From Candidatus Daviesbacteria bacterium (GTDB lineage Bacteria; Patescibacteriota; Microgenomatia; Daviesbacterales; UBA10151): a stretch of DNA of 64,000 nucleotides. The stretch covers positions 322,477 through 386,476 of the forward strand of contig JACOXI010000003.1 of the NCBI GenBank assembly GCA_016176335.1, written 5' to 3'. The notes beneath the pieces were generated by a model, which was given only the letters and a program-made list of their open reading frames with translations, ran no database searches and was not told the origin of the DNA. Positions 16,904 to 46,197 of the stretch are shown here, in pieces (within the stretch, counting starts at the first letter, position 1; every line of letters begins with the position of its first letter). Both the position numbers and the translations under genes were made by a program.

Positions 16904-16975
16904 GGCTCTGTCGTCTAGGGGTTAGGACACAGCGTTCTCAACGCTGTAACACGGGTTCGAATCCCGTCAGAGCCA
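16904..16975 (+). tRNA. tRNA-Glu (anticodon CUC)
   Basis: Manually folded cloverleaf. Acceptor ggctctg/cagagcc. D-stem gtct/ggac with GG-containing loop. Anticodon stem cagcg/cgctg with loop ttCTCaa. T-arm acggg-TTCGAAT-cccgt. Discriminator A. CCA is not encoded. Confidence 0.8.
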
Positions 16976-29568: not shown

Positions 29569-29595
29569 AAGTAGTATATCATCATATAATTAGAT

Positions 29596-31143: not shown

Positions 31144-31148
31144 TTAAA

Positions 31149-32636: not shown

Positions 32637-34175
32637 ATGAACAAGTTCTTTCCTTCGGAAATGAGATTACTATATTACCTAATTTATGCTTTTATTATGC
32701 TAAATATAATGTTAAGCGCTTGGTGGTTGTTTCATGGTGATATTCGCTACGACGTAGATATAGCCAGAGATTTCCTGTTAATAAAAGAAATTCTCACCAT
32801 TAAACCTTTTACCTTGATAGGATCGCATACCTCAGTAAGTGGAGTTTTCCATGGTCCTTTGTGGTATTACCTCAATGTCCCTGCCTTTTTGATTTCTTCT
32901 GGTAATCCTATTTTCATTGGCTGGTTTTGGTGGGGGCTTTCAATTTTAACACTTATGATATTTTTCTTTGTAACTCAAAAATTATTTAATAAACTTACGG
33001 CTTCTTTGGCAACACTTCTCTACAGCGCAAGCGCAATTATTAATCCTATATACGGCTTAAAGATGTTTTTTCCTCCATATGGTGCTGTGGTTTTATCTCC
33101 TGTATTTTTTTACCTATTTTTAAAATATATCAATAGTAAAAAAGCCAAATATTTGACAGCGGCTTTATTTAGCTTGGGGCTTATTATTCAATTTGAGATG
33201 GCTTTCGGAATCCCAATGTTACTTCTTACCATATTATTTTTGACATTTTTTCTATTTACCAAAAAGTTAGTAAAACATTGGTTAGCTTTCCCCGTAATTC
33301 TTTTACCTTTGTCTACTTTTATACTTTTTGATCTTCGCCATAATTTTTTGCAAACTCTCTCCTTAGTAAGATATGTGACGTCGGAGGTGGGTAAACGTCA
33401 ATTTGATTTGTTTACCATTTTTATAGAGAAGATTAATGGAATTTTCTCCGACACATTTTTCTTATTAACACAGGACAGTAGAATGTTAAGCTGGATATAT
33501 TCTATTTTGTTTATCATTTTAGTTTTCAAAGTTAAACAAAAGACAAAAAAAACCTACTTTTTCTTTTTATATTTTTTCATAGGATATTGGCTTCTTCATC
33601 TTTCTCTAAAACCTCTCTGGAGCACTTATTATTGGCCTCTTTTACCTCTGATTATTATGCTTTACAGTGCCTTCGTAAACTTTTTCTCCAAGAAAGTCTT
33701 TGTAATAATTTATATTCCACTTTTAATTTGGAGTATGTATATAGGTATAAGTTATATTAAAGATTTTAAGATAGATGTGACTGAAAGAGGTAAATATAGC
33801 TGGGCTTTCAATAAGTTAATTGCGGACAGTGTTTTCAAGGATACAGAGAGTGATTTTGGATATTTTATCTTTACTTCTGATCGATGGGTTTATCAAAATT
33901 GGTATGCCTTGGATTTTGTGCAAAAAGATTATCCTCAAAAAAAAGCACATCCTTTCACCAAGCAAAAATTAACCTATTTAATAATAATTGATTATCCAAA
34001 AGATCGTCAGGATCCAGTGAGTCAGGGATGGAGAATAACTGATCTTAAAATTACATCAGAGCCTCAAGAAATAAAAAATATTGATATTGTGCAAATTCAA
34101 AAATATTTCTTAACTGAAGAAGAGATAAAGTCACCAGTAAATCCTTATCTTTTAAATTCAACTTTTTTCAGATGA
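32637..34175 (+). CDS. GT-C-like polytopic membrane glycosyltransferase paralog (FDLRHN-motif subfamily)
   Basis: 512 aa. RYDVDIARDFL ... LIGSHTSVSGVFHGPLWYY ... FDLRHNFLQT. C-terminal soluble domain is alignable with that of 29596-31143. Confidence 0.55.
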   Translation: MNKFFPSEMRLLYYLIYAFIMLNIMLSAWWLFHGDIRYDVDIARDFLLIKEILTIKPFTLIGSHTSVSGVFHGPLWYYLNVPAFLISSGNPIFIGWFWWGLSILTLMIFFFVTQKLFNKLTASLATLLYSASAIINPIYGLKMFFPPYGAVVLSPVFFYLFLKYINSKKAKYLTAALFSLGLIIQFEMAFGIPMLLLTILFLTFFLFTKKLVKHWLAFPVILLPLSTFILFDLRHNFLQTLSLVRYVTSEVGKRQFDLFTIFIEKINGIFSDTFFLLTQDSRMLSWIYSILFIILVFKVKQKTKKTYFFFLYFFIGYWLLHLSLKPLWSTYYWPLLPLIIMLYSAFVNFFSKKVFVIIYIPLLIWSMYIGISYIKDFKIDVTERGKYSWAFNKLIADSVFKDTESDFGYFIFTSDRWVYQNWYALDFVQKDYPQKKAHPFTKQKLTYLIIIDYPKDRQDPVSQGWRITDLKITSEPQEIKNIDIVQIQKYFLTEEEIKSPVNPYLLNSTFFR

Positions 34176-35020
34176 ATCAAGAATTTAGGAATTTAACGAA
34201 TAGGTGGGTTGCAGGAAAGTTACCAGCAAGACCGCTGGATGCCAATAAAGGGACTTTTGGAAAAGTATTGGTAATTGCGGGTTCCGAAAATTTTCCTGGA
34301 GCGGCATATCTTTGTTGTGCTGCTGCTTATAGAGTAGGAGCTGGACTGGTAACATTAATAACTGAAAAGGAGGTCAAAACTGTGGTTTCTAAGAAACTAC
34401 CTGAAGTCACTTTTCTATCTTTTTCTGAAGTTTTTGAAAAACTGAATCACTATGATGTTGTTTTGTTAGGTCCTGGTTTAGGTCAAAGTAAAAATCTTGT
34501 TGAGTTTGTAGACAGATTCTTAAAAGAGAGATTGTCAAAAACAGTCATAGATGGAGATGGTTTGAATATTCTTTCTAAAAAGCAGAATTGGTGGGAGAAA
34601 TTAAACGGGGAAGTAGTTTTAACACCTCACCCGGGCGAAATGGCAAGATTGACTGACCTATCTATAGATGAGATTCAGGCAAATAGAGAAGAGATTACAA
34701 AACATTTTGCAAAAAAATGGAACAAAATTGTAGTTTTAAAGGGCGCAAATACTGTTATTGTCTCCCCTGGTGGGGAAGTGGGGGTAAGTCCTTTTGCAAA
34801 TCCCGCTCTTGCAACAGCAGGCACAGGTGATGTTTTATCGGGAATAATTGCTGGTTTAATTGCCCAAGGACTGAAACCTTTTGATGCGGCATGTTGTGGG
34901 GTGTACATTCATGGGATGGCAGGTGAAGAAATAAAGCAGAATATGGGTGACGCGGGAGTACTAGCAAGTGACCTGCTACCGTTTTTACCAGGGATTTTAA
35001 AAAAACTTAGGCAATCTTGA
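34172..35020 (+). CDS. nnrD: ADP-dependent NAD(P)H-hydrate dehydratase (YjeF C-terminal domain)
   Basis: GTFGKVLVIAGSENFPGAAYLCCAAAYRVGAGLV and GTGDVLSGIIAGL motifs. Confidence 0.8.
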   Translation: MNQEFRNLTNRWVAGKLPARPLDANKGTFGKVLVIAGSENFPGAAYLCCAAAYRVGAGLVTLITEKEVKTVVSKKLPEVTFLSFSEVFEKLNHYDVVLLGPGLGQSKNLVEFVDRFLKERLSKTVIDGDGLNILSKKQNWWEKLNGEVVLTPHPGEMARLTDLSIDEIQANREEITKHFAKKWNKIVVLKGANTVIVSPGGEVGVSPFANPALATAGTGDVLSGIIAGLIAQGLKPFDAACCGVYIHGMAGEEIKQNMGDAGVLASDLLPFLPGILKKLRQS

Positions 35021-36553
35021 CTATTCAACAAACCCAAGCATTGGATCAGTTAAATTGGTATTTTGTCCGCTGCAGGCTGTTTGCATAACTTCTTTGGATG
35101 CAATTTCTGTAGGAGGAATTATCCCGATATGACCGTATTTTGCCCTGACTTCTTTTAAAGCATATTCATTGGGAATAACGATGTTATATACGGGACTGCC
35201 TCGTCCTGCAACTGCAATATGAGCATTTTTTAAAAAGAAGAAATATCTGAATCCCACATTTTCCCCCGGAGAGGTGATGTAATTTATGGAAAAACAAGGG
35301 AAGTTTTTATTTTTTGCATCGTTGGTAATATAATCTACCACGGCCTTCTTTTCTATATAGCCTTTGTGATAAGTATCTTGAGTGATAATGGAAAAGGCAT
35401 TTTTTAATGCAATGACCACCAAAAGAGCTGCTACCAAGATCTTCCCGTAAGGTAAATTTTTATATAGGTAATAAAGGTAAAGAGCGATAATACCCAAAAA
35501 AACAGCTTCAATATTAGTAAAATAATATTCTGAAATAGGCGTTGAGGAGACAGAAAAAAACAAAACTACAGTCAGTACCCAAATATAGAGTGGGATTAGC
35601 TCTTTTGTTTTAATCAACTTCTTTTTCACTAGCCAAAGAGCAGAGGTGAGTATCACTAATGGAAAAAGAAAATTACTGGTTGCCTTGAATGTTTGAGGAG
35701 CGAACAAAAGACTATTAATATTTTTGGTGATCACCTCTATCACTATTTGAAACTTATACCATCCGCTTGCTCCTTCACGGGGGGTGATAAAGTTTTGCAA
35801 AAGATTTGAGGTCTGTTGAAATCCATTTTTAAATTCAAAAATCATTAACGGGAGGGAAATAATAAAAAAGAGCGCTATGAAATTAAAAACTTGTCTAGAC
35901 TTTGGTAATTTTTTGGAAAGTAAGATCGCAAATGGTATTGCAGTAAGTGTGGGAATTAGAGCAATATGGATATGCCAAATCAGACCCACTAAAATGCCTA
36001 ACAATAAAAGTGCAGAAAAATTTCCCCGAGATAACATCACTAATGAATAAAAGTACCAGATAGCCCAAAGAGGTGTGGCGACTGTTGGTACTATCCATCT
36101 ATCAGCATTAACGGTGGTAATTAAAATAGCATATAAAAATGCACCAATTAATCCGGCCTCCTCTTTAAAAAGTTTGGCTAAAATAAAGTAATAGCTAAGA
36201 ATTGTAAAAAGACCCAAGAAGGTTATTGGAATAAGTACTCCAATTGGATCCATTCTGGTGAAGAGAAAGAAGGGTGCCAGAAGATAATAAAAGGCAGGTC
36301 CAATATAAATTCCGGGAGCGGATGTCAGTTGTCCAATCAGTCTTGGGTGATGATTGACAACGATATCTTTTACAACCCAAGAATATAAATCACCGTCATG
36401 ATCAAAACCAAACCTCTCAACTACCTGATATGTTCTGAAGAATAATCCTACAGCCAGAATTAGCCCCAATATAAGAAGATGCCATCTTTTTTTGAGATAA
36501 TTGACTACCTTATGCATCCCTCTGATAGTATCAGCAAAAATTTGAATGTGCAA
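35021..36553 (-). CDS. GT-C-like polytopic membrane glycosyltransferase paralog
   Basis: 510 aa. FDHDGDLYSWVVKDIV ... LIGQLTSAPGIYIGPAFYY ... DRWIVPTVATPLW ... LVGLIWHIHIALIP ... FEFKNGFQQ. Inverted paralog of 31149-32636. Confidence 0.55.
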   Translation of the reverse strand: MHIQIFADTIRGMHKVVNYLKKRWHLLILGLILAVGLFFRTYQVVERFGFDHDGDLYSWVVKDIVVNHHPRLIGQLTSAPGIYIGPAFYYLLAPFFLFTRMDPIGVLIPITFLGLFTILSYYFILAKLFKEEAGLIGAFLYAILITTVNADRWIVPTVATPLWAIWYFYSLVMLSRGNFSALLLLGILVGLIWHIHIALIPTLTAIPFAILLSKKLPKSRQVFNFIALFFIISLPLMIFEFKNGFQQTSNLLQNFITPREGASGWYKFQIVIEVITKNINSLLFAPQTFKATSNFLFPLVILTSALWLVKKKLIKTKELIPLYIWVLTVVLFFSVSSTPISEYYFTNIEAVFLGIIALYLYYLYKNLPYGKILVAALLVVIALKNAFSIITQDTYHKGYIEKKAVVDYITNDAKNKNFPCFSINYITSPGENVGFRYFFFLKNAHIAVAGRGSPVYNIVIPNEYALKEVRAKYGHIGIIPPTEIASKEVMQTACSGQNTNLTDPMLGFVE

Positions 36554-36578
36554 TTGTAAGCTGATACACTAGGTCACT

Positions 36579-37352
36579 ATGATTGTCAAATCTATCAAAA
36601 CAAGAAAATTCCTTCCACCTAAAGATGATCTTTGGGGATTATTATCAGATAACATAAAATCATTAAAGGAAAATTCAGTGGTGGCAGTAACTTCTAAAAT
36701 TGTTTCTATTGGGGAGGGAAGATGTATTCCTATTGCAGACTTTCCGGATAAAGATAAACTGGTCGCAGAGGAGGCAGATAAATATCTTCCTAGAGCTGCA
36801 GCGCCCCATGGCTTTGTGATGCATACAATTAAAAATGGTATGATGGTGGCATCAGCCGGAATAGATGAAAGTAATGGAGCCAACTTTTATATACTTTGGC
36901 CAAAAGACCCACAGAAGTCTGCACAGCGGATTTGGGAATTTTTAAAAGAGAAATTTAAGGTTAAAAATTTAGGAGTAATAATCACTGATTCCAGGTTAGT
37001 TCCCCTAAAACGTGGAGTTTTGGGAATTGCCATAGGTTATTTTGGATTTAAACCCTTAAGAGACTATAGAGGTAAAATTGATATTTTTGGTAGAGAATTT
37101 AAAATGGAAACATCCAACTTACCGGATAGTTTGGCAACAGCTGCGGTTTTGGAAATGGGGGAAGGTAACGAGCAAACCCCAATAGGTATAATTACAGATA
37201 CTCCATATTTGGAATTTACAAATACCTTACCTGGTGAAAAAGTAGGAAATTTTAGTTTTAAGATTCCTGAAAAGGAAGATATGTTTCATCCTTTGATAGC
37301 AGCTGTTAAGTGGAAGAAAGGCGGGAGCGGTAAAAAAGGGTATAGGGGTTAG
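36579..37352 (+). CDS. F420-0:gamma-glutamyl ligase (CofE)-like gamma-glutamyl ligase family protein
   Basis: VVAVTSKIVSIGEGR ... ASAGIDESNG ... IITDSRLVPLKRGVLGIAIGYFGF resembles the CofE/FbiB N-domain signature. Confidence 0.6.
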   Translation: MIVKSIKTRKFLPPKDDLWGLLSDNIKSLKENSVVAVTSKIVSIGEGRCIPIADFPDKDKLVAEEADKYLPRAAAPHGFVMHTIKNGMMVASAGIDESNGANFYILWPKDPQKSAQRIWEFLKEKFKVKNLGVIITDSRLVPLKRGVLGIAIGYFGFKPLRDYRGKIDIFGREFKMETSNLPDSLATAAVLEMGEGNEQTPIGIITDTPYLEFTNTLPGEKVGNFSFKIPEKEDMFHPLIAAVKWKKGGSGKKGYRG

Positions 37353-38275
37353 GGTTTAGGGTATAGAGTTTTGAAGAATTCAATTGTTTTTTTAAGACCT
37401 TCTTTTAAATCTACTTTTGCTTCCCAGCCTAGCTCTCTCTTAATTTTTTGGGAAGATGCAACCAGTTTGGGTACATCGCCCTGCCTCTCGCCTTTATCAT
37501 CAATTGGTACAGCGTATCCTATCAGGTTAAAAATCTCTTTTACAACATCTATTACCTTCATTCCCGTTTCGGTCCCGACATTGTAAATATTTAACCCTGA
37601 CAAAGAGAGAGGCATTATATGTGCTGCTGCCAAATCATCAATATAGATGAAATCCCGGACTTGTTCCCCTTTCCAAAATAGAGGAACCGGCTGTTTGGAA
37701 AGAACTGCTTTTACAAAATTTGGGATGGCGTGTGTTTCCGGATCATGTAATTCTCCGGGGCCATATGGGTTAAAATATCGCAAAATTGCCACATCAAAAT
37801 TAAAAAGATGATGGTATAGACTACAAAATTGTTCTGTTGTAACTTTTGTAATCCCATACGGGTTTTCCTGCACCCCTTGCGGATCATCTTCTGTGATAGG
37901 TAATTTTTTGGGAGTACCATAAACACAGGCGCTTGAGGAAAAGATAATTTTTTTAACTTGCGTTTTTTTCATCGCTTCTAAAAGTTTGACTCCACCCAAG
38001 ATATTATTTTGGGCAAACTCTGCGGGGTTTCTAATAGATTCCGAAACCTCAATAAAGCTTGCCATGTGGATTACCCCGTCATGACCGGGTAAAATTTTTT
38101 CAATAGAAGGTTGATCTAGGAGATCTGCCTGTATAAAAGTTGCTCTTTTATCAATCAGTTCTTTTTTTCCTGTAGACAAATTATCAACAACTGTGACAAT
38201 ATGACCTTGCTTAAGTAGCAGTTTTGTTACATGAGATCCTACAAAACCGGCACCACCTGTAACAAGTATTTTCAT
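37349..38275 (-). CDS. NAD-dependent sugar epimerase (UDP-glucose 4-epimerase-like SDR)
   Basis: MKILVTGGAGFVGSH Rossmann motif and catalytic YGITK (YxxxK). 308 aa. Confidence 0.8.
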   Translation of the reverse strand: MKILVTGGAGFVGSHVTKLLLKQGHIVTVVDNLSTGKKELIDKRATFIQADLLDQPSIEKILPGHDGVIHMASFIEVSESIRNPAEFAQNNILGGVKLLEAMKKTQVKKIIFSSSACVYGTPKKLPITEDDPQGVQENPYGITKVTTEQFCSLYHHLFNFDVAILRYFNPYGPGELHDPETHAIPNFVKAVLSKQPVPLFWKGEQVRDFIYIDDLAAAHIMPLSLSGLNIYNVGTETGMKVIDVVKEIFNLIGYAVPIDDKGERQGDVPKLVASSQKIKRELGWEAKVDLKEGLKKTIEFFKTLYPKP

Positions 38276-38322
38276 ATAAGGTTCATTTTATCACACTATA
38301 TAACATACATTAGTTCATTGCT

Positions 38323-39870
38323 GTGATAACATACTTAGTGATGAAAAAATTAATCGTCTTCGTTTTATTAATAGGAGTTATTTTCAAGCTATCTTTATCC
38401 TCGGACGGTCGCTTTCTTTTTAATATGGATAATGCAAGAGATTTAATTGATGTAAGAGAAATGATAGTTTTAAAAAAATTACGTCTTATCGGACCTTCAA
38501 CCGCGATAGAAGGTTTTTTTAACGGTCCGGCCTGGTATTATTTGCTGGCAATACCTTTTGTACTTTCTCAAGGTGATCCTTATTCAACCATTATTTTACA
38601 GATTATATTCTGGGTAATTGGCGGATATTTTCTTTTAAAGATTGTTTCAAAATGGAGTATGTTTTTGGTAGTCCCCATTGGTTTTTTATGGATTGCATCT
38701 GATTATATTAACTTGGCCACATCTTATGTTTTTAATCCAAATCCGATCACACTGCTTACCCCGCTTTTTATATATCTACTTTATAAATATACAGAAACAA
38801 ACAAGTTGATTTTTGCAGCATTAACTTTTTTGTTAGGCGGGTTATTTTTTAATTTTGAGATGAATTTTGGGATTTTTATACCGGTAATAATTTTCTTTAG
38901 TATTTTGTTGTCAAAAAAAGCATATTTTTTAAAAGGTTTAAATTTTTGGATTGGAGCTTCCTTTTATGTTATTTGTCTTATGCCACAAATTATTTTTAAT
39001 TTTAAACATAACCTTTTAATATCGAATGCAGTAATAAATCATCTGCAGCGTGAAAGCAAAAGTGTTGATTTTCCTAATCGTTTTCAAAGTACAACCTCCA
39101 TTTTTTATAATATTTTTATACCGACTATTTTAAACAGAAAATTACTCGCCTTTGCTATTTTAATCTTTTCAATGCCTGTTTTGTTAAAATTTATTCGACA
39201 GGGTCATAAAGACCCTATAGTTATTATAAGTTTATGCTATATTTTTATTCCCTTTACTTTCTACCTATTCTTGCCTGTTACTGTTAGTCCCTGGCATCTT
39301 GGTGGAATAATGTCAGCATCGATTATTTTAGTTGGTTTTCTTTTAAGAAAACTGTGGGAATTTAATTTAGCAGGAAAATTAATATCTTTAAGTTTAGCGA
39401 TTTTAATCTTCTATTTTTCATTATTTAATATTTTTAAATTTCTTCTTGTTGATATAAAAATTCCCAATATGGATCCTGCGCTTTTTAAGAATGAAGTAGC
39501 GGCAATAGATTACGTTTATAAATATGCTAATGGCAAAAATTTTAAAGTTTATACATACCTTCCTTCGATAATAGATTACCCCTATCAGTATTTGATCTGG
39601 TGGTACGGATTAAAGGAATACGGTTTCTTGCCGATAGAATATGCTTATGCGAAGAATAAACCCGAGTATATTTCCAACAAAGCAAAATTTTCGGAAACAG
39701 AAGAAAAGTTAAAACTTAGAGAGAATTCGAACTTGATTTTTTTGATCAAAGAGCCCAATAGAAATTACACCCGTTTCGGTTGGGAGGGAGATTTTGTAAA
39801 ATTTGAGACTGTGGATAAACACATGGTAGGGCCTTTGGAAATTGAGGTAAAAACTGAAGTTAGTCAATAG
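38323..39870 (+). CDS. GT-C-like polytopic membrane glycosyltransferase paralog
   Basis: 515 aa. NMDNARDLIDVREM ... LIGPSTAIEGFFNGPAWYY ... FNFKHNLL. Same family as the 29.6-36.5 kb paralogs. Confidence 0.55.
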   Translation: MITYLVMKKLIVFVLLIGVIFKLSLSSDGRFLFNMDNARDLIDVREMIVLKKLRLIGPSTAIEGFFNGPAWYYLLAIPFVLSQGDPYSTIILQIIFWVIGGYFLLKIVSKWSMFLVVPIGFLWIASDYINLATSYVFNPNPITLLTPLFIYLLYKYTETNKLIFAALTFLLGGLFFNFEMNFGIFIPVIIFFSILLSKKAYFLKGLNFWIGASFYVICLMPQIIFNFKHNLLISNAVINHLQRESKSVDFPNRFQSTTSIFYNIFIPTILNRKLLAFAILIFSMPVLLKFIRQGHKDPIVIISLCYIFIPFTFYLFLPVTVSPWHLGGIMSASIILVGFLLRKLWEFNLAGKLISLSLAILIFYFSLFNIFKFLLVDIKIPNMDPALFKNEVAAIDYVYKYANGKNFKVYTYLPSIIDYPYQYLIWWYGLKEYGFLPIEYAYAKNKPEYISNKAKFSETEEKLKLRENSNLIFLIKEPNRNYTRFGWEGDFVKFETVDKHMVGPLEIEVKTEVSQ

Positions 39871-40279
39871 TTATCAATCGTTTATTCCCTTCTAATTTTG
39901 CTATAGTTATTTTAGTTGTATTTTTTGGCAAGATTTTCTTTATTTTGCCTGCCCATTCAATTAGGACAATATTTTTTGGATTTGACCAAGTATCATGAAG
40001 CCCAAGTTGTTTTAAATCTTTTAATTTTTCCAGTCTGTATAAATCAACATGGAAGAGGAAATTGTTGGAATTGGGAATTTGGTGTTGGCGGATTAAGATA
40101 AAAGTGGGGGAGATGATTTTTTCCTTAATACCCAATCCTTGTGCAAATCCCTGGGTAAACATGGTCTTGCCTGCTCCTAATTCACCAAAAAGTCCAATAA
40201 CTCCACCTTGAAAATTTTTAGCCAGTTTTTTGGCAAGGTCTTTAGTTTCTTTTTCCGAATATGTTAAATATTGCTTCAC
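39860..40279 (-). CDS. tsaE: tRNA t6A37 biosynthesis ATPase TsaE (YjeE)
   Basis: P-loop GGVIGLFGELGAGKTMFTQGFAQGLGI at the canonical distance from the N-terminus. Start taken at GTG (VKQYL). The longer ATG-initiated ORF to 40327 overlaps the upstream gene by 86 nt. Confidence 0.7.
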   Translation of the reverse strand: MKQYLTYSEKETKDLAKKLAKNFQGGVIGLFGELGAGKTMFTQGFAQGLGIKEKIISPTFILIRQHQIPNSNNFLFHVDLYRLEKLKDLKQLGLHDTWSNPKNIVLIEWAGKIKKILPKNTTKITIAKLEGNKRLITID

Positions 40280-41474
40280 GTAAATCCTTACTTCGTAAGT
40301 ATACAAAAGCAAAAAGGCCAATTCCACAAGCTGTCATGAAAAGCCCAACCCAGTTTAAATAATTTGTCCGACTTTCACCTTTGACTACCGTTTGTCGGTT
40401 GCTTGATGTTGTGGCTTTTGCGGCAGGAGTAGCTATCTTAATATATTTTTCTAATGAATATTCCGCATCTTTTAAGGATATGGGCGTATCTTTCTTTCTT
40501 TGGCTTCCCGTTACACCCAAGACTTCACTATCATCTTCTTCCTCAAGTATAACTTCTTGTGCATTTATTTTTATAACTGACTCGTTACTCCAACTTAAGG
40601 ATCCATCTTCTGTATATCTTCCTACTTTAAAAATATACTCCCCTGCCCCTTCATATCCGGAGTCTAAAATATCCGGTCGGATTTCTAAATTACCCGACCA
40701 ATTTCCTTCTCCATTAGTGGTAATTTTATATTGATCTTGATATTTTATGCTGTTTTTTATCCAACTGTTTCCAACTTTTGTCAGGCCGAAATAATTTGTT
40801 CCATCTTTCTTTTTAAATGCTCCCTTAAGATAAAAAGTGGTATTGGGTTTGCCGGATAAAGACAAATTAACAACCACATTAAAAGTTTCTGTGGAATCAA
40901 TTTGAGAGGGGGTATTGGAAATGGTGAAGGTAGATGAAGAAGAGGTGGTTGAGAAGGGCGATGGGCTGGATGAGGAGTTGGGGGATGGGGAAGTAGATGG
41001 AGTTGGGGAGGGAGTTGGAGAGGGTGTGGTAAAAGCTATGGTAATATCTTTAGGTGTTTGTTGGTCAGAAGATACTTGGCTATAGCCAGAACTTGTGTAA
41101 CGTCTTATCCTTAATTTATAAGCACCCAATCCAGGATATTCTGTAGATGTTGGGGTACCGACTTTACCTTGGACAGAACCGTTCCATGTTTGGCCAGAAA
41201 CGATGGTAATAGGAAAATATTGCGTTCCAGTAGAGCCACTGTACCAACTGTTATTATTATAAGTTTCTCCAAAGTAATTTATAGAGCCATCCTTAAATAA
41301 ATCAATTCTTAAGTAATTTGTGCCAGCAGATGCTCCTGTGACAGAGACATTAATATCAAAAGTTTGATCTGAAATAGATGAGGGAATATTGGAAGTTGTG
41401 ACTGTGACAGCGAAAACGGGTCTTACCCCAAAAAAGAGGAAAAAACAAGTAAGAATGAGTAATGTGATTCTCAC
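40242..41474 (-). CDS. secreted/surface protein with two tandem ~110-aa repeat domains, a Ser/Thr/Pro-rich linker and a C-terminal TM anchor
   Basis: Signal peptide MRITLLILTCFFLFFGVRPVFA. Domain 1 (TSNIPSSISDQTFDINVSV ... GAYKLRIRRYTSSG) and domain 2 (SNTPSQIDSTETFNVVVNL ... GEYIFKVGRYTEDG) are clearly homologous. Linker TPSPTPSPTPSTSPSPNSSSSPSP. C-terminal helix LNWVGLFMTACGIGLFAFVYL. Confidence 0.5.
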   Translation of the reverse strand: MRITLLILTCFFLFFGVRPVFAVTVTTSNIPSSISDQTFDINVSVTGASAGTNYLRIDLFKDGSINYFGETYNNNSWYSGSTGTQYFPITIVSGQTWNGSVQGKVGTPTSTEYPGLGAYKLRIRRYTSSGYSQVSSDQQTPKDITIAFTTPSPTPSPTPSTSPSPNSSSSPSPFSTTSSSSTFTISNTPSQIDSTETFNVVVNLSLSGKPNTTFYLKGAFKKKDGTNYFGLTKVGNSWIKNSIKYQDQYKITTNGEGNWSGNLEIRPDILDSGYEGAGEYIFKVGRYTEDGSLSWSNESVIKINAQEVILEEEDDSEVLGVTGSQRKKDTPISLKDAEYSLEKYIKIATPAAKATTSSNRQTVVKGESRTNYLNWVGLFMTACGIGLFAFVYLRSKDLREAIFNIFGKRN

Positions 41475-41496: not shown

Positions 41497-42687
41497 TTAG
41501 GGGATATGCCAATACAAAGTAACTATATCGCTATTATCATGATCCAATAACACCCCTTTTCCTACAGTTCCTGTTAAGTAACAGGCATTGGAGTCTGAAA
41601 ACTCATAAGCCATCCCGTCTGCAACAGCCTTGATTGGATATCCAGAGGGGTTGGCAATGTCTAAGCCAGTATGTGGCGGCCAGCCGGGAATATAATCTGA
41701 TCCAGATGCCCCATAAAGAGTAGTTATATCTCCATAACAGGAACTGGTAAAATTACATTTGTTACCAGAGTAGTTATCAAGTGGTGAACCGAACTGAGAA
41801 TTTATGTAAGGCTTTGGATCTACTTTATTTTCCCGTCCTACTACATTATTATTTTCCACTCTGGCATTGGTCATTACTTCAAAGTGTAGATGGGGTCCTG
41901 TGGAACATCCGGAATTACCAACAGATGCAATTACCTCTCCTTTTTTAACAGGTCCTTTTTTTACACCTACCCCGCTTAAGGCACGTCTAATAGAGTCGGT
42001 ATCTGCTCTAAGCTGAGCAATTAAACCTTGATAGCGAGCTTCATCGTTTTTGGTAATTGCCAAAAGTTCATCCTTGGCCTTTTTTTGTTGAGTCAGTTGA
42101 TCCTTATAAACAGATAATTCTTTATTTAATTTTTCCGCCTCTTGTTGTCTTGTTTCCTTATCCTGTTTTTGTTCGTTGTAAGCAAGTTTGGTAGCTTGCA
42201 GCTCATATAATTTTTTCTTATCATAAGCTTGGGCAACCTGGATGTATTTTAATCTCTCAATTAGTTCAGCAAAACCGTGTGAGGAAAAAAGTAGATCAAA
42301 GGTAGTGACGGCATTACCGTATTTATAGGTTTGAATAATTCTTTTTAATAAAATTTCGGAAAGTGTATCCAAAGTTTTGGAAATCCTGTCAATTCTTCCT
42401 GATAAATCATTAATCTCCCTTTCTAATTTTTCAATTTTTAAACTCGTTTCCTCAATTTTTAAAGTTGTAACCTTAGTTTGCCCATCAATGATGGTAAGCT
42501 GTGATTGTAAAGTCTTTTCCGTGCCTCTCACTTGTTGCAGTTGAGCTTCAAGTTTTTGGATCTCTGCCTGTTTTTCCTGAAGTTGTTTTGATAGATCATC
42601 TTGAGATTGTGCGGATACGCCAAGCGTAAACAAAAGATTGATGAATGAGAAGATAAAGATGAAAAACAAGAGGGAAACTTTTCTCAT
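41497..42687 (-). CDS. M23 (LytM) family peptidase with long N-terminal coiled coil (EnvC/PcsB-like FtsEX partner)
   Basis: Signal peptide from MRKVSLLFFIFIF and ~200 aa of heptad-rich coiled coil. M23 motifs are present, but in the order GNSGCSTGPHLHFEV and then HTGLDIANPSGYPIKAVADGMA ... YWH (see findings). Confidence 0.7.
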   Translation of the reverse strand: MRKVSLLFFIFIFSFINLLFTLGVSAQSQDDLSKQLQEKQAEIQKLEAQLQQVRGTEKTLQSQLTIIDGQTKVTTLKIEETSLKIEKLEREINDLSGRIDRISKTLDTLSEILLKRIIQTYKYGNAVTTFDLLFSSHGFAELIERLKYIQVAQAYDKKKLYELQATKLAYNEQKQDKETRQQEAEKLNKELSVYKDQLTQQKKAKDELLAITKNDEARYQGLIAQLRADTDSIRRALSGVGVKKGPVKKGEVIASVGNSGCSTGPHLHFEVMTNARVENNNVVGRENKVDPKPYINSQFGSPLDNYSGNKCNFTSSCYGDITTLYGASGSDYIPGWPPHTGLDIANPSGYPIKAVADGMAYEFSDSNACYLTGTVGKGVLLDHDNSDIVTLYWHIP

Positions 42688-42706
42688 TTGGTGTAAAAAT
42701 ACTCCC

Positions 42707-43579
42707 TTATATCTTAAGGTAACGCCTAACTGCACCCAAGGAGCCTAATCCTCCAATGACACAAGCCATAAGTAGCACCACTCCCAGTAATGCCATCATG
42801 AAGACGGGATTAACCGGCAGCATTTTTACTTCTCCCAAGTATCCTTGCAAAAATGGAGTAAAGTACCAAAGTAAAATATAAATAATTATCCAGGATGATA
42901 CGGCACCTGCAACTCCATAAAACATACCCTCCAAAATAAAAGGGTTTCTGACAAAGGATGAGGATGCCCCCAAAAGCCTCATTGTTTCTATCTCTCCTCT
43001 TCGAAGCCTTATTTTAAAACCTATTATCATCAAAATCACCAGCATAGAAAATATCAGCAGGAATCCAACTATGGAGCCGCCCACCAGTCGTATAATAGTT
43101 GTGATGGCGGTTAAGGTTTCAATAACATCCACTGGTACTATTACCTCGGAAACCACCGGCTCTTTACTTACAATTTGGGCGATAGGTTTCAAATCGTCAG
43201 GGCTTTTGGTAGATACTTCCAAAGAAGCCGGCAGTATATTGGCGGTCACCAACTCCAAGAGAGTTGGGTCATTTTTATTTTTCTCACGGTAAATTTCCAA
43301 AGCTTCCTGTTTTGAAACAAATTTTGTTGCAATAACCCTTGCTTCTGCCTTTAGGGCATTTTCAATTGTTGAAACATCCTGATCGGTTGTACCCTCTTTG
43401 AAAAAAACAATTATTTGAGGTTTACTTTCAAAAAATCGTAGAGCTTGCTGTGATCCTGCTGCAACCAAAAGAAAAGCAAGGAGCGCAAAAAAAGTTAAAA
43501 ACATCACCATTGAGGCGGCAATTGCCTGAATTGGAGTTCTTCTAATATTTCTTTTGGCAAACTCAAAAGATCTACTCAT
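42707..43579 (-). CDS. ftsX: cell-division permease-like protein FtsX
   Basis: 290 aa. N-terminal TM, periplasmic loop, three C-terminal TM helices. Overlaps ftsE by 8 nt. Confidence 0.85.
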   Translation of the reverse strand: MSRSFEFAKRNIRRTPIQAIAASMVMFLTFFALLAFLLVAAGSQQALRFFESKPQIIVFFKEGTTDQDVSTIENALKAEARVIATKFVSKQEALEIYREKNKNDPTLLELVTANILPASLEVSTKSPDDLKPIAQIVSKEPVVSEVIVPVDVIETLTAITTIIRLVGGSIVGFLLIFSMLVILMIIGFKIRLRRGEIETMRLLGASSSFVRNPFILEGMFYGVAGAVSSWIIIYILLWYFTPFLQGYLGEVKMLPVNPVFMMALLGVVLLMACVIGGLGSLGAVRRYLKI

Positions 43580-44246
43580 ATTTACCCTCCTTGCTGTCTT
43601 TTACAATTTTGCCGGTTTTTAAGACAACAACCCTTCTTTTTAAGGTATTTACAATTTCCTGATTGTGGGTGGCCATGATAATTGTTGTACCCCAGGAGTT
43701 TATTTCATTTAAAAGTTGGATTACCCCCCAGGCTGTTTTAGGGTCCAAATCTCCTGTTGGTTCATCTGCCAAAAGAACATCAGGTTTCCCTACAATAGCT
43801 CTGGCAATTGCAGTTCTTTGTGCTTCTCCTCCCGAAAGTTGTCTTGGGAAAAGATTTCTTTTATCCCAAATTTCAACCAGTTTTAAAATATGCTCAACTC
43901 CTTTTTCAATTTCTTTATTGCTTTTTCCCCGAACTTCCAAAGCAAGAGCAACATTTTCAAAAACGGTTCTCTCGTCCAGCAGCTTAAAATCTTGGAAAAC
44001 TACCCCGACTCTTCTCCTCAAATGGGGAATTTCTTTATGCGGCAGTTTTGTTAAATCCCTTTTATCAAGATATACTTTTCCAGATGTTGGTAGTAGTTCT
44101 CTGGTTAAGATTCGAAGGAGTGTAGATTTGCCAGCACCGGAGGGTCCCACTATAAAAACAAATTCGCCCTGTTTTATCTCTAAGGAGATATCATCTAAAG
44201 CGATGGAGGAGCCAAATTTTTTTGTGACAGATTCGAAGACAATCAT
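43572..44246 (-). CDS. ftsE: cell-division ABC ATPase FtsE
   Basis: Walker A GPSGAGKSTLLRIL, ABC signature LSGGEAQRTAIARA, Walker B VLLADEPTGDLD. Confidence 0.9.
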   Translation of the reverse strand: MIVFESVTKKFGSSIALDDISLEIKQGEFVFIVGPSGAGKSTLLRILTRELLPTSGKVYLDKRDLTKLPHKEIPHLRRRVGVVFQDFKLLDERTVFENVALALEVRGKSNKEIEKGVEHILKLVEIWDKRNLFPRQLSGGEAQRTAIARAIVGKPDVLLADEPTGDLDPKTAWGVIQLLNEINSWGTTIIMATHNQEIVNTLKRRVVVLKTGKIVKDSKEGKYE

Positions 44247-44690
44247 TCATTTAATCTCTTCTATTTTACCAACATCCATTAACCAACCTTCTTTAATGGC
44301 TTTTTGGGTTTCACCGAAAACTTTCACTTTTTTATCTTCATATTGAGACAAATCTACAACAGAGGAGGTAAGGGCAACAGGTACAGCTCCTTCCCGCGCA
44401 AGCAAATGTGTGCCTTCAACATACTCTGTCGGATTTTTAGGTTGCGGTCTGGCTTGAATTGTACCTTCCGCAAAATCCCTGAAAGTTCTGGTATCTTGTT
44501 GTGGAGCGGCAGGGGTTTTATTAGCACCCAACGGGGATATATTGGCTCCACTACCTTTGGAAGAAAGAATATAGCCTGTGACCGTACCCAATAAAATAGC
44601 AGCTACCGCCACTACAATCAGCATCCTGATAGGGCTCATGTTGGAAAAATGCTTGGTGATATTTTCATAAGGTGTGGTCTTTTCTTCCAT
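44247..44690 (-). CDS. hypothetical membrane-anchored protein
   Basis: 147 aa with a single TM helix (MLIVVAVAAILLGTVTGYIL) and a soluble C-terminal domain. Tightly coupled to ftsE. Confidence 0.4.
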   Translation of the reverse strand: MEEKTTPYENITKHFSNMSPIRMLIVVAVAAILLGTVTGYILSSKGSGANISPLGANKTPAAPQQDTRTFRDFAEGTIQARPQPKNPTEYVEGTHLLAREGAVPVALTSSVVDLSQYEDKKVKVFGETQKAIKEGWLMDVGKIEEIK

Positions 44691-45882: not shown

Positions 45883-46197
45883 ATGATTTTGCATATTGAT
45901 ACCAGGGGCGGCTCTGCCGCTAAAGATCGTGAAGCAATAATTGTTTCTTTAAAGAAGGATGGGCAAGTTGTGAAAAGTTTATCGGAAAAAAATGAATACG
46001 GATCACAGGTGCTTTTGCCGCTGATTGAGAAGCTGCTGAAAAAAAGGATATGGAAACAGTTGGAAGGAATTGAGGTTGGGGTTGGACCAGGTTCTTTTAC
46101 GGGACTTCGAGTTGGAGTATCTGTTGCAAATGCTTTAGGTTTTTCTCTAGATATTCCGGTTAATGGGAAGAAAATAGAGACAGAACTTAAATATTAA
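45883..46197 (+). CDS. TsaB (YeaZ)-like protein, N-terminal domain only
   Basis: 104 aa. MILHIDTRGG ... LLPLIEKLL ... VGVGPGSFTGLRVGVSVANALGF matches the N-terminal half of TsaB. The C-terminal half is absent. Confidence 0.55.
   Translation: MILHIDTRGGSAAKDREAIIVSLKKDGQVVKSLSEKNEYGSQVLLPLIEKLLKKRIWKQLEGIEVGVGPGSFTGLRVGVSVANALGFSLDIPVNGKKIETELKY

What the first reader, a model, noticed from the sequence alone, without database searches (positions are those of the whole stretch)
41497..44246. FtsEX with an EnvC/PcsB-like coiled-coil M23 peptidase whose M23 halves are in swapped order
ftsE-ftsX are followed directly by a secreted protein with ~200 aa of coiled coil and M23 motifs, the classic FtsEX-activated hydrolase arrangement. 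In canonical LytM/M23 domains the order is HxxxD ... YxH ... G-x-G-x-TG-PHLHFE. Here the G-N-S-G-C-S-T-G-P-H-L-H-F-E half comes first. About 60 residues later come H-T-G-L-D-I-A-N-P-S-G-Y-P-I-K-A-V-A-D-G and Y-W-H at the extreme C-terminus. This is consistent with a circular permutation of the catalytic domain. Alternatively, it is two partial domains.
Basis: partly seen in the sequence, partly recalled or inferred. Interest (0 to 1): 0.6.

Follow-up and report, generated by a model that had tools for sequence, protein, structure and literature searches.

The report
Circularly permuted M23 hydrolase beside FtsEX
In this candidate-phylum bacterium the cell-wall-cutting enzyme encoded next to the division proteins FtsE and FtsX has the two halves of its zinc-peptidase domain in swapped order; the swap is real, is conserved across a whole bacterial lineage, and moves the enzyme's tether to right beside its active site.

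Summary
The gene at 41497..42687 (-), 396 aa, follows ftsE-ftsX directly. It encodes a signal peptide, about 210 aa of EnvC/PcsB-type coiled coil, and an M23 (LytM) domain. The HxH half of that domain precedes the HxxxD...YxH half.

- **Exact complementarity:** re-joining the halves in silico turns two out-of-order matches into one colinear M23 match.
- **Active site kept:** all five Zn and catalytic residues are invariant down to about 27% identity.
- **One domain:** AlphaFold2 predicts a single compact domain (pTM 0.84), and a Cys parity rule suggests a disulfide between the halves.
- **Not an artefact:** 225 of 230 homologues and 80 of 80 checked GTDB species loci are permuted. ftsX lies directly upstream in 70 of 74 loci.
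- **Distribution:** the permuted form is found in Microgenomates-group Patescibacteria. The closest relatives with the same coiled coil but normal M23 order are Parcubacteria-group Patescibacteria.

The parts
43572..44246 (-). ftsE (ABC ATPase), 224 aa
   Evidence: TIGR02673 FtsE scores 279.5 bits against a cut-off of 264.85. Pfam ABC_tran E = 1.9e-39. It overlaps ftsX by 8 nt.
42707..43579 (-). ftsX (permease-like, with extracellular domain), 290 aa
   Evidence: Pfam FtsX_ECD 65.6 bits and FtsX 50 bits, both above their cut-offs. The NCBIfam FtsX equivalogs score 172-177 bits, below their cut-offs of 225-255.
41497..42687 (-). Gene for the coiled-coil protein with a circularly permuted M23 domain (396 aa plus stop)
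   Evidence: It is 100% identical to P0001, annotated as a peptidoglycan DD-metalloendopeptidase family protein of Candidatus Daviesbacteria.
42613..42687 (-). N-terminal signal peptide or membrane anchor (aa 1-25, MRKVSLLFFIFIFSFINLLFTLGVS, followed by A-Q)
   Evidence: Read directly from the sequence. A hydrophobic N-terminus is present across the family alignment. Cleavage is inferred, not tested.
41974..42603 (-). Coiled-coil region (aa 29-238): long helices 60-124 and 139-212 forming a hairpin, then a terminal helix 216-238 that leads straight into the M23 domain
   Evidence: AlphaFold2 secondary structure, pLDDT mostly 89-97. Weak Pfam CC_PcsB match, 23.1 bits against a cut-off of 27. 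Foldseek top hit is EnvC in V. cholerae FtsEX-EnvC, 8tzl_E, E = 2.3e-4. The region is colinear with the coiled coil of canonical-order relatives.
42040..42054 (-). Conserved TKNDE motif (aa 212-216, E216 invariant) at the start of the last helix
   Evidence: E216 is invariant, and T212 is nearly invariant (invariant); N214 is invariant only among close homologues. The motif is shared by permuted and canonical-order relatives. Its role is unknown.
41797..41985 (-). M23 C-terminal half placed first (aa 235-297), containing GNSGCSTGPHLHFE and the canonical domain end KVDPKPYI
   Evidence: Aligns to 3slu 293-337 and to Pfam M23 profile positions 52-92.
41884..41892 (-). HLH (H266, H268): the HxH motif, one catalytic His and one Zn ligand
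   Evidence: Invariant in 35 diverse family members. Translation verified. Residue roles follow the M23 literature (PMC11534333).
41746..41796 (-). New linker (aa 298-314) joining the canonical C-terminus to the canonical N-terminus. It is variable in length and carries a Cys pair in many members.
   Evidence: Alignments. pLDDT is lower here.
41500..41745 (-). M23 N-terminal half placed last (aa 315-396), containing HTGLD and ending at YWH-IP
   Evidence: Aligns to 3slu 222-295.
41659..41673 (-). HTGLD (H339, D343): the HxxxD Zn ligands
   Evidence: Invariant. Translation verified.
41506..41514 (-). YWH (H394): second catalytic His, two residues from the C-terminus
   Evidence: Y392 and H394 are invariant. 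In 221 of 225 permuted proteins exactly two residues follow this His.
44247..44690 (-). Conserved 147-aa single-pass membrane protein of unknown family, immediately upstream of ftsE. It may be part of the same operon.
   Evidence: No Pfam or PDB match. There is a 0-nt gap to ftsE. The full prfB, this gene, ftsE, ftsX order is kept in 49 of 53 loci.

Best explanation
The gene encodes a secreted or membrane-tethered peptidoglycan metallo-endopeptidase. It belongs to the class of FtsEX-coupled coiled-coil hydrolases, and its M23 (LytM) catalytic domain is a natural circular permutant.

**What is shown.** The domain starts at the segment that normally follows the 'YxH' strand. It runs through the G-x-S-G-x-S-T-G-P-H-L-H-F-E strand to the normal C-terminus (VDPxPYL). 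A new linker of about 17 residues follows. The chain then runs from the normal N-terminus through HxxxD and stops two residues after the YxH histidine.

**What is predicted.** The two halves fold into one domain carrying the full M23 active site: Zn bound by H339, D343 and H268, and water activated by H266 and H394.

**What is inferred.** The coiled-coil hairpin docks on the FtsX extracellular domains, as in EnvC, PcsB and RipC. ATP-driven movements of FtsEX are passed along the coiled coil and switch the hydrolase on at the division site. The permutation makes the last coiled-coil helix (aa 216-238) continuous with the chain segment next to catalytic H394. The mechanical input therefore arrives at the edge of the active site rather than at the distal N-terminus of the domain.

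**Likely origin.** The permutation probably arose once, in the Microgenomates lineage of Patescibacteria, from a canonical coiled-coil-M23 ancestor like those still found in Parcubacteria. The route may have been a tandem M23 duplication followed by loss of the outer halves.
For: **Sequence permutation**
- Pfam M23 matches in two stretches, the best covering profile 52-92 at aa 253-292.
- PDB alignments show the halves in reversed order and abutting at the same chain residues, 3slu 293-295.
- The re-joined sequence gives one colinear match: Pfam profile 2-92/96 at 77.4 bits against 68.1 bits for native order, and one PDB stretch at E = 5.9e-16 against two stretches at 1.7e-10.
- Controls behave as expected. 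Canonical relatives give one stretch over profile 1-96 and permuted members give two.

**Selection on one active site**
- H266, H268, H339, D343 and H394 are invariant in 35 members down to 27% identity.
- M23 catalysis needs two His plus one Asp for Zn and two more His for the water (PMC11534333).

**One domain**
- AlphaFold2 gives the full-length protein pLDDT 88.6 and the domain alone pLDDT 86.1 with pTM 0.84.
- Cys parity: all 325 sequences with C261 have 1 or 3 Cys in the N-half loop, and the 8 without it have 0 or 2.

**Not an artefact**
- 120 of 120 and 105 of 110 homologues are permuted.
- About 50 of the top 150 cluster representatives at 50% identity are permuted.
- 80 of 80 best GTDB loci cover essentially the whole permuted domain (query residues 1-163 to 1-165).

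**FtsEX link**
- ftsX lies directly upstream in 70 of 74 loci, and also in divergent clades.
- The best structural match of the full-length model is EnvC in the FtsEX complex, followed by EnvC, RipA and PcsB coiled coils.
- The known FtsEX partners and their mechanotransmission are described in PMC11627006.

**Ancestry**
- The coiled-coil HMM hits canonical-order proteins at E = 4e-23 to 7e-16.
- The alignment shows a colinear coiled coil with the HxH block relocated.
- Named canonical relatives are Liptonbacteria, Wolfebacteria and Ryanbacteria. Permuted members are Daviesbacteria, Levybacteria, Curtissbacteria, Beckwithbacteria and Woykebacteria.
Against: - My coevolution analysis failed.
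- The Cys co-variation rests on only two or three independent losses (p = 0.011 at the level of 50%-identity representatives).
- The window protein's CC_PcsB match is below the Pfam cut-off (23.1 against 27 bits).
- No direct evidence exists for FtsX binding, enzymatic activity or substrate.
- The nearest canonical relatives checked in Parcubacteria are not next to ftsEX, so FtsEX coupling of the ancestor is uncertain.
- No coiled-coil-M23-M23 intermediate was found.
- One permuted protein carries a 'Parcubacteria' label, so the taxonomic boundary is not clean.
Confidence: 0.78

Rival explanations
1. The halves complement in trans. The C-half of one chain pairs with the N-half of another, giving a domain-swapped dimer, so the active enzyme exists only as an oligomer assembled on FtsEX.
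For: PcsB, a known FtsEX partner, has an inter-domain autoinhibited arrangement (PMC11627006). I could not inspect coordinates, so intramolecular packing is only a prediction.
Against: The AlphaFold2 monomer of the domain alone is compact, with pTM 0.84. The 17-residue linker, with longer versions in other members, joins the canonical C- and N-termini. EnvC binds FtsX as a single chain with 2:1 ECD:EnvC stoichiometry.
Confidence: 0.07
2. The protein is an EnvC-like activator of another hydrolase, such as an amidase, rather than an enzyme. The M23 groove would serve as a docking site.
For: E. coli EnvC, the closest structural analogue, works this way. JGI names one family member 'septal ring factor EnvC (AmiA/AmiB activator)'.
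Against: EnvC's LytM domain has lost its Zn ligands. Here all five catalytic residues are invariant across the family. The NCBIfam EnvC equivalog scores 36 bits against a cut-off of 270.
Confidence: 0.1
3. These are two separate, partial or decaying M23 fragments that do not form a single catalytic domain, as in the reader's alternative.
For: Pfam and phmmer report two separate stretches. Foldseek does not recognise the model as M23.
Against: The fragments abut exactly, with no overlap and no missing segment, and become one colinear domain when re-joined. Every catalytic residue is under strict conservation. The predicted domain is compact. The Cys parity rule links the halves.
Confidence: 0.03
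4. Local misassembly or a strain-specific rearrangement produced the swapped order.
For: None found.
Against: The same order appears in 225 of 230 homologues from NCBI, ENA, JGI and Logan assemblies and in 80 GTDB species representatives. The proteins end at the same position, His+2, in 221 of 225.
Confidence: 0.01
5. The enzyme is a genuine permuted M23 hydrolase, but it is not regulated by FtsEX. The adjacency would only reflect operon history.
For: Canonical relatives in Parcubacteria sit in an ftsW-murG-...-murC cluster without ftsEX. One permuted locus has no ftsX upstream and three have a 1.3-kb insertion.
Against: Adjacency holds in 70 of 74 loci across proteins down to about 40% identity, and in divergent clades. 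The coiled coil is of the EnvC/PcsB type. Another canonical relative, P0252, is also directly after ftsX.
Confidence: 0.1

Closest known systems
EnvC (E. coli, V. cholerae, P. aeruginosa), the FtsEX-bound murein hydrolase activator
   Same: It has an N-terminal export signal, a long antiparallel coiled-coil hairpin, a further helix, and a C-terminal M23/LytM domain. Its gene is linked to ftsEX. It is the best structural match of the full-length model (8tzl_E, E = 2.3e-4; 6tpi).
   Different: EnvC's LytM domain is in canonical order and catalytically dead, with Zn ligands lost, and it works by activating AmiA and AmiB. Here the domain is circularly permuted and keeps all five catalytic residues. 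The NCBIfam EnvC equivalog scores 36 bits against a cut-off of 270.
PcsB (S. pneumoniae), CwlO (B. subtilis) and RipC (mycobacteria): FtsEX-activated coiled-coil hydrolases
   Same: The coiled-coil protein is itself the hydrolase and is autoinhibited until FtsEX acts. There is a weak CC_PcsB Pfam match in the hairpin-tip region, and stronger matches in relatives.
   Different: Their catalytic domains are CHAP or NlpC/P60 cysteine peptidases, not M23 metallopeptidases. The PcsB equivalog scores 21 bits against a cut-off of 450.
Canonical coiled-coil-M23 proteins of Parcubacteria-group Patescibacteria (e.g. P0215, P0416 Liptonbacteria, Wolfebacteria, Ryanbacteria) and P0252
   Same: The coiled coil is homologous and colinear, including the T-K-N-x-E-x-x-Y-Q motif (E = 4e-23 to 7e-16). 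The M23 active site is intact and overall length is similar.
   Different: Their M23 domain is in normal order, with one Pfam stretch over profile 1-96. The two Parcubacteria genes checked lie in an ftsW-murG-...-murC cluster and not after ftsX.
Canonical M23 endopeptidases with solved structures (LytM, lysostaphin, ShyA, zoocin A, 3slu/6muk)
   Same: They share the motifs HxxxD, YxH and G-x-S-G-x-S-T-G-P-H-L-H-F-E. The re-joined sequence aligns end to end (E = 6e-16 to 2e-7).
   Different: The order of the halves differs. New termini lie two residues after the YxH histidine, and a new linker joins the old termini.
Circularly permuted NlpC/P60 families (YaeF/poxvirus G6R and LRAT-like)
   Same: These set a precedent for a cell-wall-hydrolase superfamily in which the catalytic residues are swapped in primary sequence by circular permutation (PMC6403190).
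   Different: They have a different fold and chemistry (papain-like Cys peptidase). No equivalent report for M23/LytM was found in the searchable literature.

Membership tests
Peptidase family M23 (Pfam PF01551, LytM domain) | Significant match to the family HMM above the gathering threshold | tested here: met
   65.1 bits against a cut-off of 28.7, E = 6.7e-18.
Peptidase family M23 (Pfam PF01551, LytM domain) | Complete catalytic set: HxxxD (two Zn ligands), HxH (one Zn ligand and one catalytic His), and a further catalytic His (YxH) | tested here: met
   H339, D343, H266, H268 and H394 are present and invariant. Roles follow PMC11534333.
Peptidase family M23 (Pfam PF01551, LytM domain) | Canonical colinear order HxxxD ... 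YxH ... HxH within one domain | tested here: not met
   The match falls in two stretches in reversed order. It is colinear only after in-silico re-joining. The protein is homologous to M23 but topologically a permutant.
Peptidase family M23 (Pfam PF01551, LytM domain) | LytM-type fold with the five residues converging on one Zn site | tested here: inconclusive
Peptidase family M23 (Pfam PF01551, LytM domain) | Zn-dependent peptidoglycan endopeptidase activity | not testable with these tools
   Requires biochemistry.
FtsEX-coupled coiled-coil hydrolases and activators (EnvC/PcsB/CwlO/RipC class) | Gene adjacent to ftsE-ftsX | tested here: met
   A 19-nt gap in the window. ftsX is directly upstream in 70 of 74 loci, and also in divergent clades.
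FtsEX-coupled coiled-coil hydrolases and activators (EnvC/PcsB/CwlO/RipC class) | Exported protein with a long N-terminal coiled-coil hairpin followed by a C-terminal catalytic or activator domain | tested here: met
   AlphaFold2 helices 29-54, 60-124, 139-212 and 216-238 are followed by a beta domain. Foldseek top hits are EnvC in the FtsEX complex, EnvC, RipA N-terminal domain and PcsB.
FtsEX-coupled coiled-coil hydrolases and activators (EnvC/PcsB/CwlO/RipC class) | Match to the PcsB-type coiled-coil model (PF24568) | tested here: inconclusive
   The window protein scores 23.1 bits against a cut-off of 27. Many homologues carry the precomputed hit. Canonical relative P0252 scores 56.8 bits.
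FtsEX-coupled coiled-coil hydrolases and activators (EnvC/PcsB/CwlO/RipC class) | Physical binding to the FtsX extracellular domain and ATP-dependent activation | not testable with these tools
   Requires a complex structure or biochemistry. FtsX does carry the ECD (PF18075, 65.6 bits).
EnvC proper (NCBIfam NF008644 equivalog) | Score above the equivalog cut-off, and a degenerate LytM groove used to activate amidases | tested here: not met
   36.2 bits against a cut-off of 270. The active site is intact rather than degenerate (one search compared).
PcsB proper (NCBIfam NF046104 equivalog) | Score above the cut-off, and a C-terminal CHAP domain | tested here: not met
   21 bits against a cut-off of 450. 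No CHAP domain is present, and the C-terminal domain is M23.

The most novel reading that the evidence does not exclude
The permutation is an adaptive rewiring of FtsEX mechanotransmission rather than a neutral curiosity. The new N-terminus of the domain sits two to three residues from catalytic His394. The last coiled-coil helix is therefore covalently continuous with the active-site edge. FtsEX-driven movement of the coiled coil would then gate a fully active endopeptidase by pulling on or unmasking the catalytic strand itself. The strictly fixed His+2 C-terminus and the inter-half disulfide would be part of that switch. This mode of control is not known for any FtsEX partner. As a rare genomic change, the permutation would also mark the Microgenomates lineage within Patescibacteria.
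Probability: 0.2. Interest if true: 0.75.

Novelty: new variant of a known kind. Interest (0 to 1): 0.6.

Why it matters
M23/LytM domains are among the most studied cell-wall hydrolase and regulator modules. They include lysostaphin, LytM, EnvC, NlpD, ShyA and DipM. In the searchable literature I found no natural circular permutant of this domain.

A whole lineage of ultrasmall Patescibacteria uses such a permutant as its FtsEX-linked division hydrolase. This matters in four ways.

1. It shows that the M23 fold tolerates new termini right next to the catalytic histidine. That is useful for engineering lysostaphin-type enzybiotics and for designing switchable hydrolases.
2. It offers a natural experiment on how the attachment point between the coiled coil and the catalytic domain affects FtsEX control.
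3. It gives a clean rare-genomic-change character separating Microgenomates from Parcubacteria.
4. It flags an annotation blind spot. HMM and structure-search pipelines report a partial or weak M23 domain, or in the case of Foldseek nothing at all, for these proteins.

Tried and rejected
- **Foldseek, isolated-domain model against PDB.** No significant hits and no M23 chains. I judge this uninformative because Foldseek depends on residue order. It leaves the 3D claim unverified.
- **Foldseek against viral structures.** One unnamed hit, A0A510E7V3_3, E = 4e-5, TMq 0.55. I could not interpret it.
- **Mean-field direct-coupling analysis.** Run on 331 permuted domains with Neff of about 104. The top couplings were indel-column and conserved-block artefacts, even after removing gappy columns, so I abandoned it.
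- **Genome scan with the diverse alignment A3.** Alignment A2 worked.
- **Cluster-member look-ups for taxonomy.** They returned almost no names. Taxonomy came from GTDB record titles and NCBI names instead.
- **Search for a coiled-coil-M23-M23 duplication intermediate.** Many tandem M23-M23 proteins match the permuted profile across their junction. None convincingly shares the family's coiled coil; P0153 gave only two short matches (14.3 bits, E = 1.8e-4). The duplication route stays a hypothesis.
- **Promoter and terminator scan of 40.0-46.3 kb.** Nothing above shuffled expectation, and no terminator between ftsX and the M23 gene.
- **Misassembly, two partial domains, and the upstream GTG start at 42735.** All considered and rejected. 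The GTG start would overlap ftsX by 29 nt and precede the signal peptide. The ATG at 42687 has a GGGAG site and matches the NCBI model.


Full report
**What is in the window**

Three tightly packed genes lie on the minus strand.
- ftsE is at 43572..44246. It matches TIGR02673 FtsE at 279.5 bits, above the cut-off of 264.85.
- ftsX is at 42707..43579. It matches Pfam FtsX_ECD and FtsX and overlaps ftsE by 8 nt.
- After a 19-nt gap containing GGGAG, an ATG at 42687 opens a 396-aa ORF that ends at 41497.

The longer GTG-initiated ORF from the mechanical list (start 42735) would overlap ftsX and precede an obvious signal peptide. The 396-aa version is identical to an NCBI protein from Candidatus Daviesbacteria. 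The window therefore comes from a Microgenomates-group member of the Patescibacteria (CPR).

**Checking the observation**

In the 396-aa numbering the protein has these features:
- a hydrophobic signal or anchor (aa 1-25);
- about 210 residues of helix (aa 29-238);
- GNSGCSTGPHLHFE at 257-270;
- HTGLD at 339-343;
- YWH at 392-394, two residues from the end.

Pfam finds Peptidase_M23 at E = 6.7e-18, but as two stretches. The best stretch covers only profile positions 52-92.

Residue-level alignments to solved M23 chains make the order explicit (412-aa ORF numbering). Protein residues 331-411 align to 3slu 222-295, which is the HxxxD...YxH half. Residues 251-295 align to 3slu 293-337, which is the HxH half. 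The two pieces meet at the same chain residues (293-295), so nothing is duplicated and nothing is missing.

The only adjustment is that the spacing is 71 residues rather than about 60.

**Permutation or two fragments?**

I re-joined the halves in canonical order in silico.
- The result is a single colinear Pfam match over profile 2-92 of 96 at 77.4 bits. The native order gives 68.1 bits in two stretches.
- Against 3slu the result is one PDB stretch of about 124 residues at E = 5.9e-16. The native order gives two stretches at 1.7e-10.
- As controls, canonical relatives give one stretch over profile 1-96, and other permuted members give two stretches.

M23 catalysis needs a Zn held by two His and one Asp, plus two further His that activate water (PMC11534333). 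All five are present here: H339 and D343, H268, H266 and H394. They are invariant among close homologues and among 35 diverse members down to 27% identity. Such selection makes sense only if both halves build one site.

AlphaFold2 models the full protein at mean pLDDT 88.6. It models the C-terminal 165 residues alone at pLDDT 86.1 and pTM 0.84, which indicates one compact globule.

One further line of evidence is independent of the model. The Cys in GNSG-C-STGPH (C-half) and Cys residues in the DSxAC loop (N-half) obey a parity rule in 333 of 333 non-redundant domains. All 325 sequences with the first Cys have 1 or 3 loop Cys. The 8 without it have 0 or 2. That is what a disulfide between the halves predicts. 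The rule rests on only a few independent losses (p = 0.011 among representatives below 50% identity).

**Limits of the structural evidence**

I could not verify that the model superposes on the LytM fold.
- Foldseek, which requires conserved residue order, returned no M23 chain for the isolated domain.
- Coordinates are not exposed.
- My own coupling analysis was dominated by artefacts.

The single-fold claim therefore rests on complementarity, conservation, model confidence and the Cys pattern, not on a measured superposition.

**Not an artefact, and how widespread**
- All 120 best homologues of the window protein (58-100% identity, from NCBI, ENA, JGI and Logan assemblies) have the same order and end in TLYWHI[P/L].
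- A profile of the permuted domain was searched against 1.84 billion cluster representatives. About 50 of the top 150 were permuted, mostly 360-420 aa.
- A search seeded with a divergent member gave 105 of 110 permuted.
- A scan of GTDB species representatives found 291 loci encoding a relative. The best 80 all cover essentially the whole permuted domain (query residues 1-163 to 1-165).
- Named records are Daviesbacteria, Levybacteria, Curtissbacteria, Beckwithbacteria, Woykebacteria and 'Microgenomates group', all in the Microgenomates group.
- In 221 of 225 permuted proteins the chain ends exactly two residues after the catalytic His.

**Genomic context**

ftsX lies directly upstream (gap under 300 nt) in 70 of 74 loci that have at least 1 kb of upstream DNA. 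Three loci have an insertion of about 1.27 kb, and one has no ftsX.

The whole order prfB, 147-aa membrane protein, ftsE, ftsX, permuted M23 is kept in 49 of 53 loci with enough sequence. Divergent permuted clades show the same order, with tsaE downstream as in the window.

**Relation to known FtsEX partners**

The full-length model's best PDB match is EnvC in the V. cholerae FtsE/FtsX/EnvC complex (8tzl_E, E = 2.3e-4). Next come E. coli EnvC bound to the FtsX ECD, the RipA N-terminal coiled coil, and PcsB.

Known partners share an autoinhibited design of coiled coil plus C-terminal domain. FtsEX relieves the inhibition through movements passed along the coiled coil. In EnvC a 'restraining arm' helix fills the groove of a catalytically dead LytM domain, which then activates amidases. 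PcsB, CwlO and RipC carry active CHAP or NlpC/P60 domains (PMC11627006).

The protein here has the EnvC architecture but an intact active site. It fails the EnvC and PcsB equivalog models by a wide margin. It works like this class but is not an orthologue of either named member.

**Nearest un-permuted relatives and origin**

An HMM of the family's coiled coil alone hits four canonical-order proteins over its full length (E = 4e-23 to 7e-16).

A joint alignment shows a colinear coiled coil, including a shared T-K-N-x-E-x-x-Y-Q motif with invariant E216. The block VKxGxxIxxxGNxGxSTGPHLHF...(D/N)PxxYL sits at the C-terminus in canonical proteins. In permuted proteins it sits between the coiled coil and the GxLxWP...ITQxFG lead-in.

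Homologues of the canonical relative P0215 are 116 of 119 canonical. Where named, they are Liptonbacteria, Wolfebacteria, Ryanbacteria, Paceibacterota and 'Parcubacteria', all in the Parcubacteria group.

The simplest reading is a single permutation event in the Microgenomates lineage from a canonical coiled-coil-M23 ancestor within Patescibacteria.

Tandem M23-M23 proteins are common, and their junctions match the permuted profile in one stretch. This makes the classic route of duplication followed by trimming plausible. None of these tandem proteins convincingly carries this coiled coil; one (P0153) gave only two short matches at 14.3 bits, E = 1.8e-4, so the route is inferred, not shown.

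Two Parcubacteria canonical genes lie in an ftsW-murG-gltX-[M23]-murC cluster rather than after ftsX. Another canonical relative (P0252) lies directly after ftsX.

**Proposed mechanism, with status of each step**
- *Shown:* the permuted M23 sequence, the complete and conserved catalytic set, an EnvC-type coiled coil, and conserved ftsEX adjacency.
- *Predicted:* one compact domain, and an inter-half disulfide.
- *Inferred from established knowledge of EnvC, PcsB and RipC:* the hairpin tip (aa ~120-150, the best conserved part and the part matching CC_PcsB) binds the FtsX ECDs, and FtsE ATPase cycles release autoinhibition.
- *Inferred from spacing:* helix 216-238 ends about 28 residues before H266. 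Adding the two residues after H394 gives roughly the canonical gap between the YxH histidine and the first HxH histidine, measured in solved M23 chains (39 residues in 3slu, shorter in LytM-type chains). The chain entering from the coiled coil and the free C-terminus should therefore sit side by side at the edge of the active site. The permutation thus moves the tether from the far N-terminus of the domain to the catalytic strand. This could give more direct coupling between coiled-coil movement and an enzyme that is itself lytic.

**Novelty and score**

Full-text searches gave no report of a permuted M23. The queries combined circular permutation with M23, LytM or FtsEX, and Patescibacteria or CPR with FtsEX or EnvC. 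The only permutation mentioned among cell-wall hydrolases is in NlpC/P60 families.

Public annotations call these proteins 'peptidoglycan DD-metalloendopeptidase family protein', 'CwlO-like' or 'EnvC', with no note of the topology.

I rate it a new variant of a known kind, with interest 0.6. It is a clean, lineage-wide natural circular permutation in a heavily studied catalytic domain, located at a mechanistically suggestive position. It sits within a well-understood functional class, and its functional consequence is untested.

Noticed in passing
window 44247..44690 (-): A 147-aa single-pass membrane protein with no Pfam or PDB match abuts ftsE with a 0-nt gap. It is conserved between prfB and ftsE in 49 of 53 loci. 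Divergent permuted clades have an unannotated 131-180 aa gene in the same slot. It may be an extra FtsEX-associated component in this lineage.
   Followed up: partly
window 41500..41514 (-); family-wide: In 221 of 225 permuted proteins the chain ends exactly two residues after the catalytic His of YWH. The reason for this fixed C-terminal length is unknown.
   Followed up: partly
L088 5001-6293; L089 5001-6323: The nearest canonical-order coiled-coil-M23 genes, from Parcubacteria, lie in an ftsW-murG-gltX-[M23]-...-murC cluster rather than next to ftsEX. Another canonical relative lies directly after ftsX and before a CtpB-like S41 peptidase (L087).
   Followed up: partly
L002, L004, L006, L007, L011, L012 and many others: GenBank titles read 'uncultured Gammaproteobacteria (or Pseudomonadales) bacterium isolate binchicken_/SRP...'. 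Yet the contigs carry the Daviesbacteria-type prfB-x-ftsE-ftsX-permuted-M23 operon at 55-84% amino-acid identity. The organism labels are probably wrong.
   Followed up: no
L040, L042, L054 (between ftsX and the permuted M23 gene): About 1.27 kb of extra DNA is inserted between ftsX and the M23 gene in three related loci. L073 has a permuted gene with no ftsX in the 1.7 kb upstream.
   Followed up: no
P0148, P0153-P0156, P0161, P0163, P0172-P0174 and others: Many proteins carry closely spaced tandem canonical M23-M23 domains (order N-C-N-C, with the junction spaced much as in the permutant). These are the textbook type of intermediate for circular permutation. None convincingly shares this family's coiled coil; only P0153 gave short weak matches (14.3 bits).
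   Followed up: partly
P0140 (alignment): This 361-aa representative begins with a P-loop GTPase-like N-terminus (MPNVGKSTLFNALT...) joined to the C-terminal part of a permuted protein. It is probably a chimeric gene call or assembly join.
   Followed up: no
window 28174..39870 and 58376..59875: A series of roughly 500-aa membrane-protein genes sits in the lowest-GC DNA of the window (0.31-0.33), and a further one lies at 58376..59875 where GC is about 0.36. At least four match PMT_2 glycosyltransferases, and three similar-sized neighbours have no Pfam match.
   Followed up: partly
window 40242..41474 (-): The gene just downstream of the M23 gene encodes a 410-aa protein with a signal peptide, a Ser/Pro/Thr-rich linker and a C-terminal membrane anchor, with no Pfam family. 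Only part of it is conserved in related loci, at 36-66% identity.
   Followed up: no
window 45883..46197 (+) and 39860..40327 (-): A short 104-aa ORF matches only the N-terminal part of the TsaD/TsaB family. A TsaE gene lies three genes away on the other side of the operon. tsaE is also downstream of the permuted M23 gene in divergent clades.
   Followed up: no
BFVD entry A0A510E7V3_3: This is the only significant structural neighbour of the isolated permuted domain in the viral library (E = 4e-5, TMq 0.55, 170 columns, a 1191-residue target). It is unnamed, and could be a phage tandem or permuted M23.
   Followed up: no
window 16904..16975 (+): A single tRNA is the only Rfam match at gathering threshold in the 64-kb window.
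   Followed up: no
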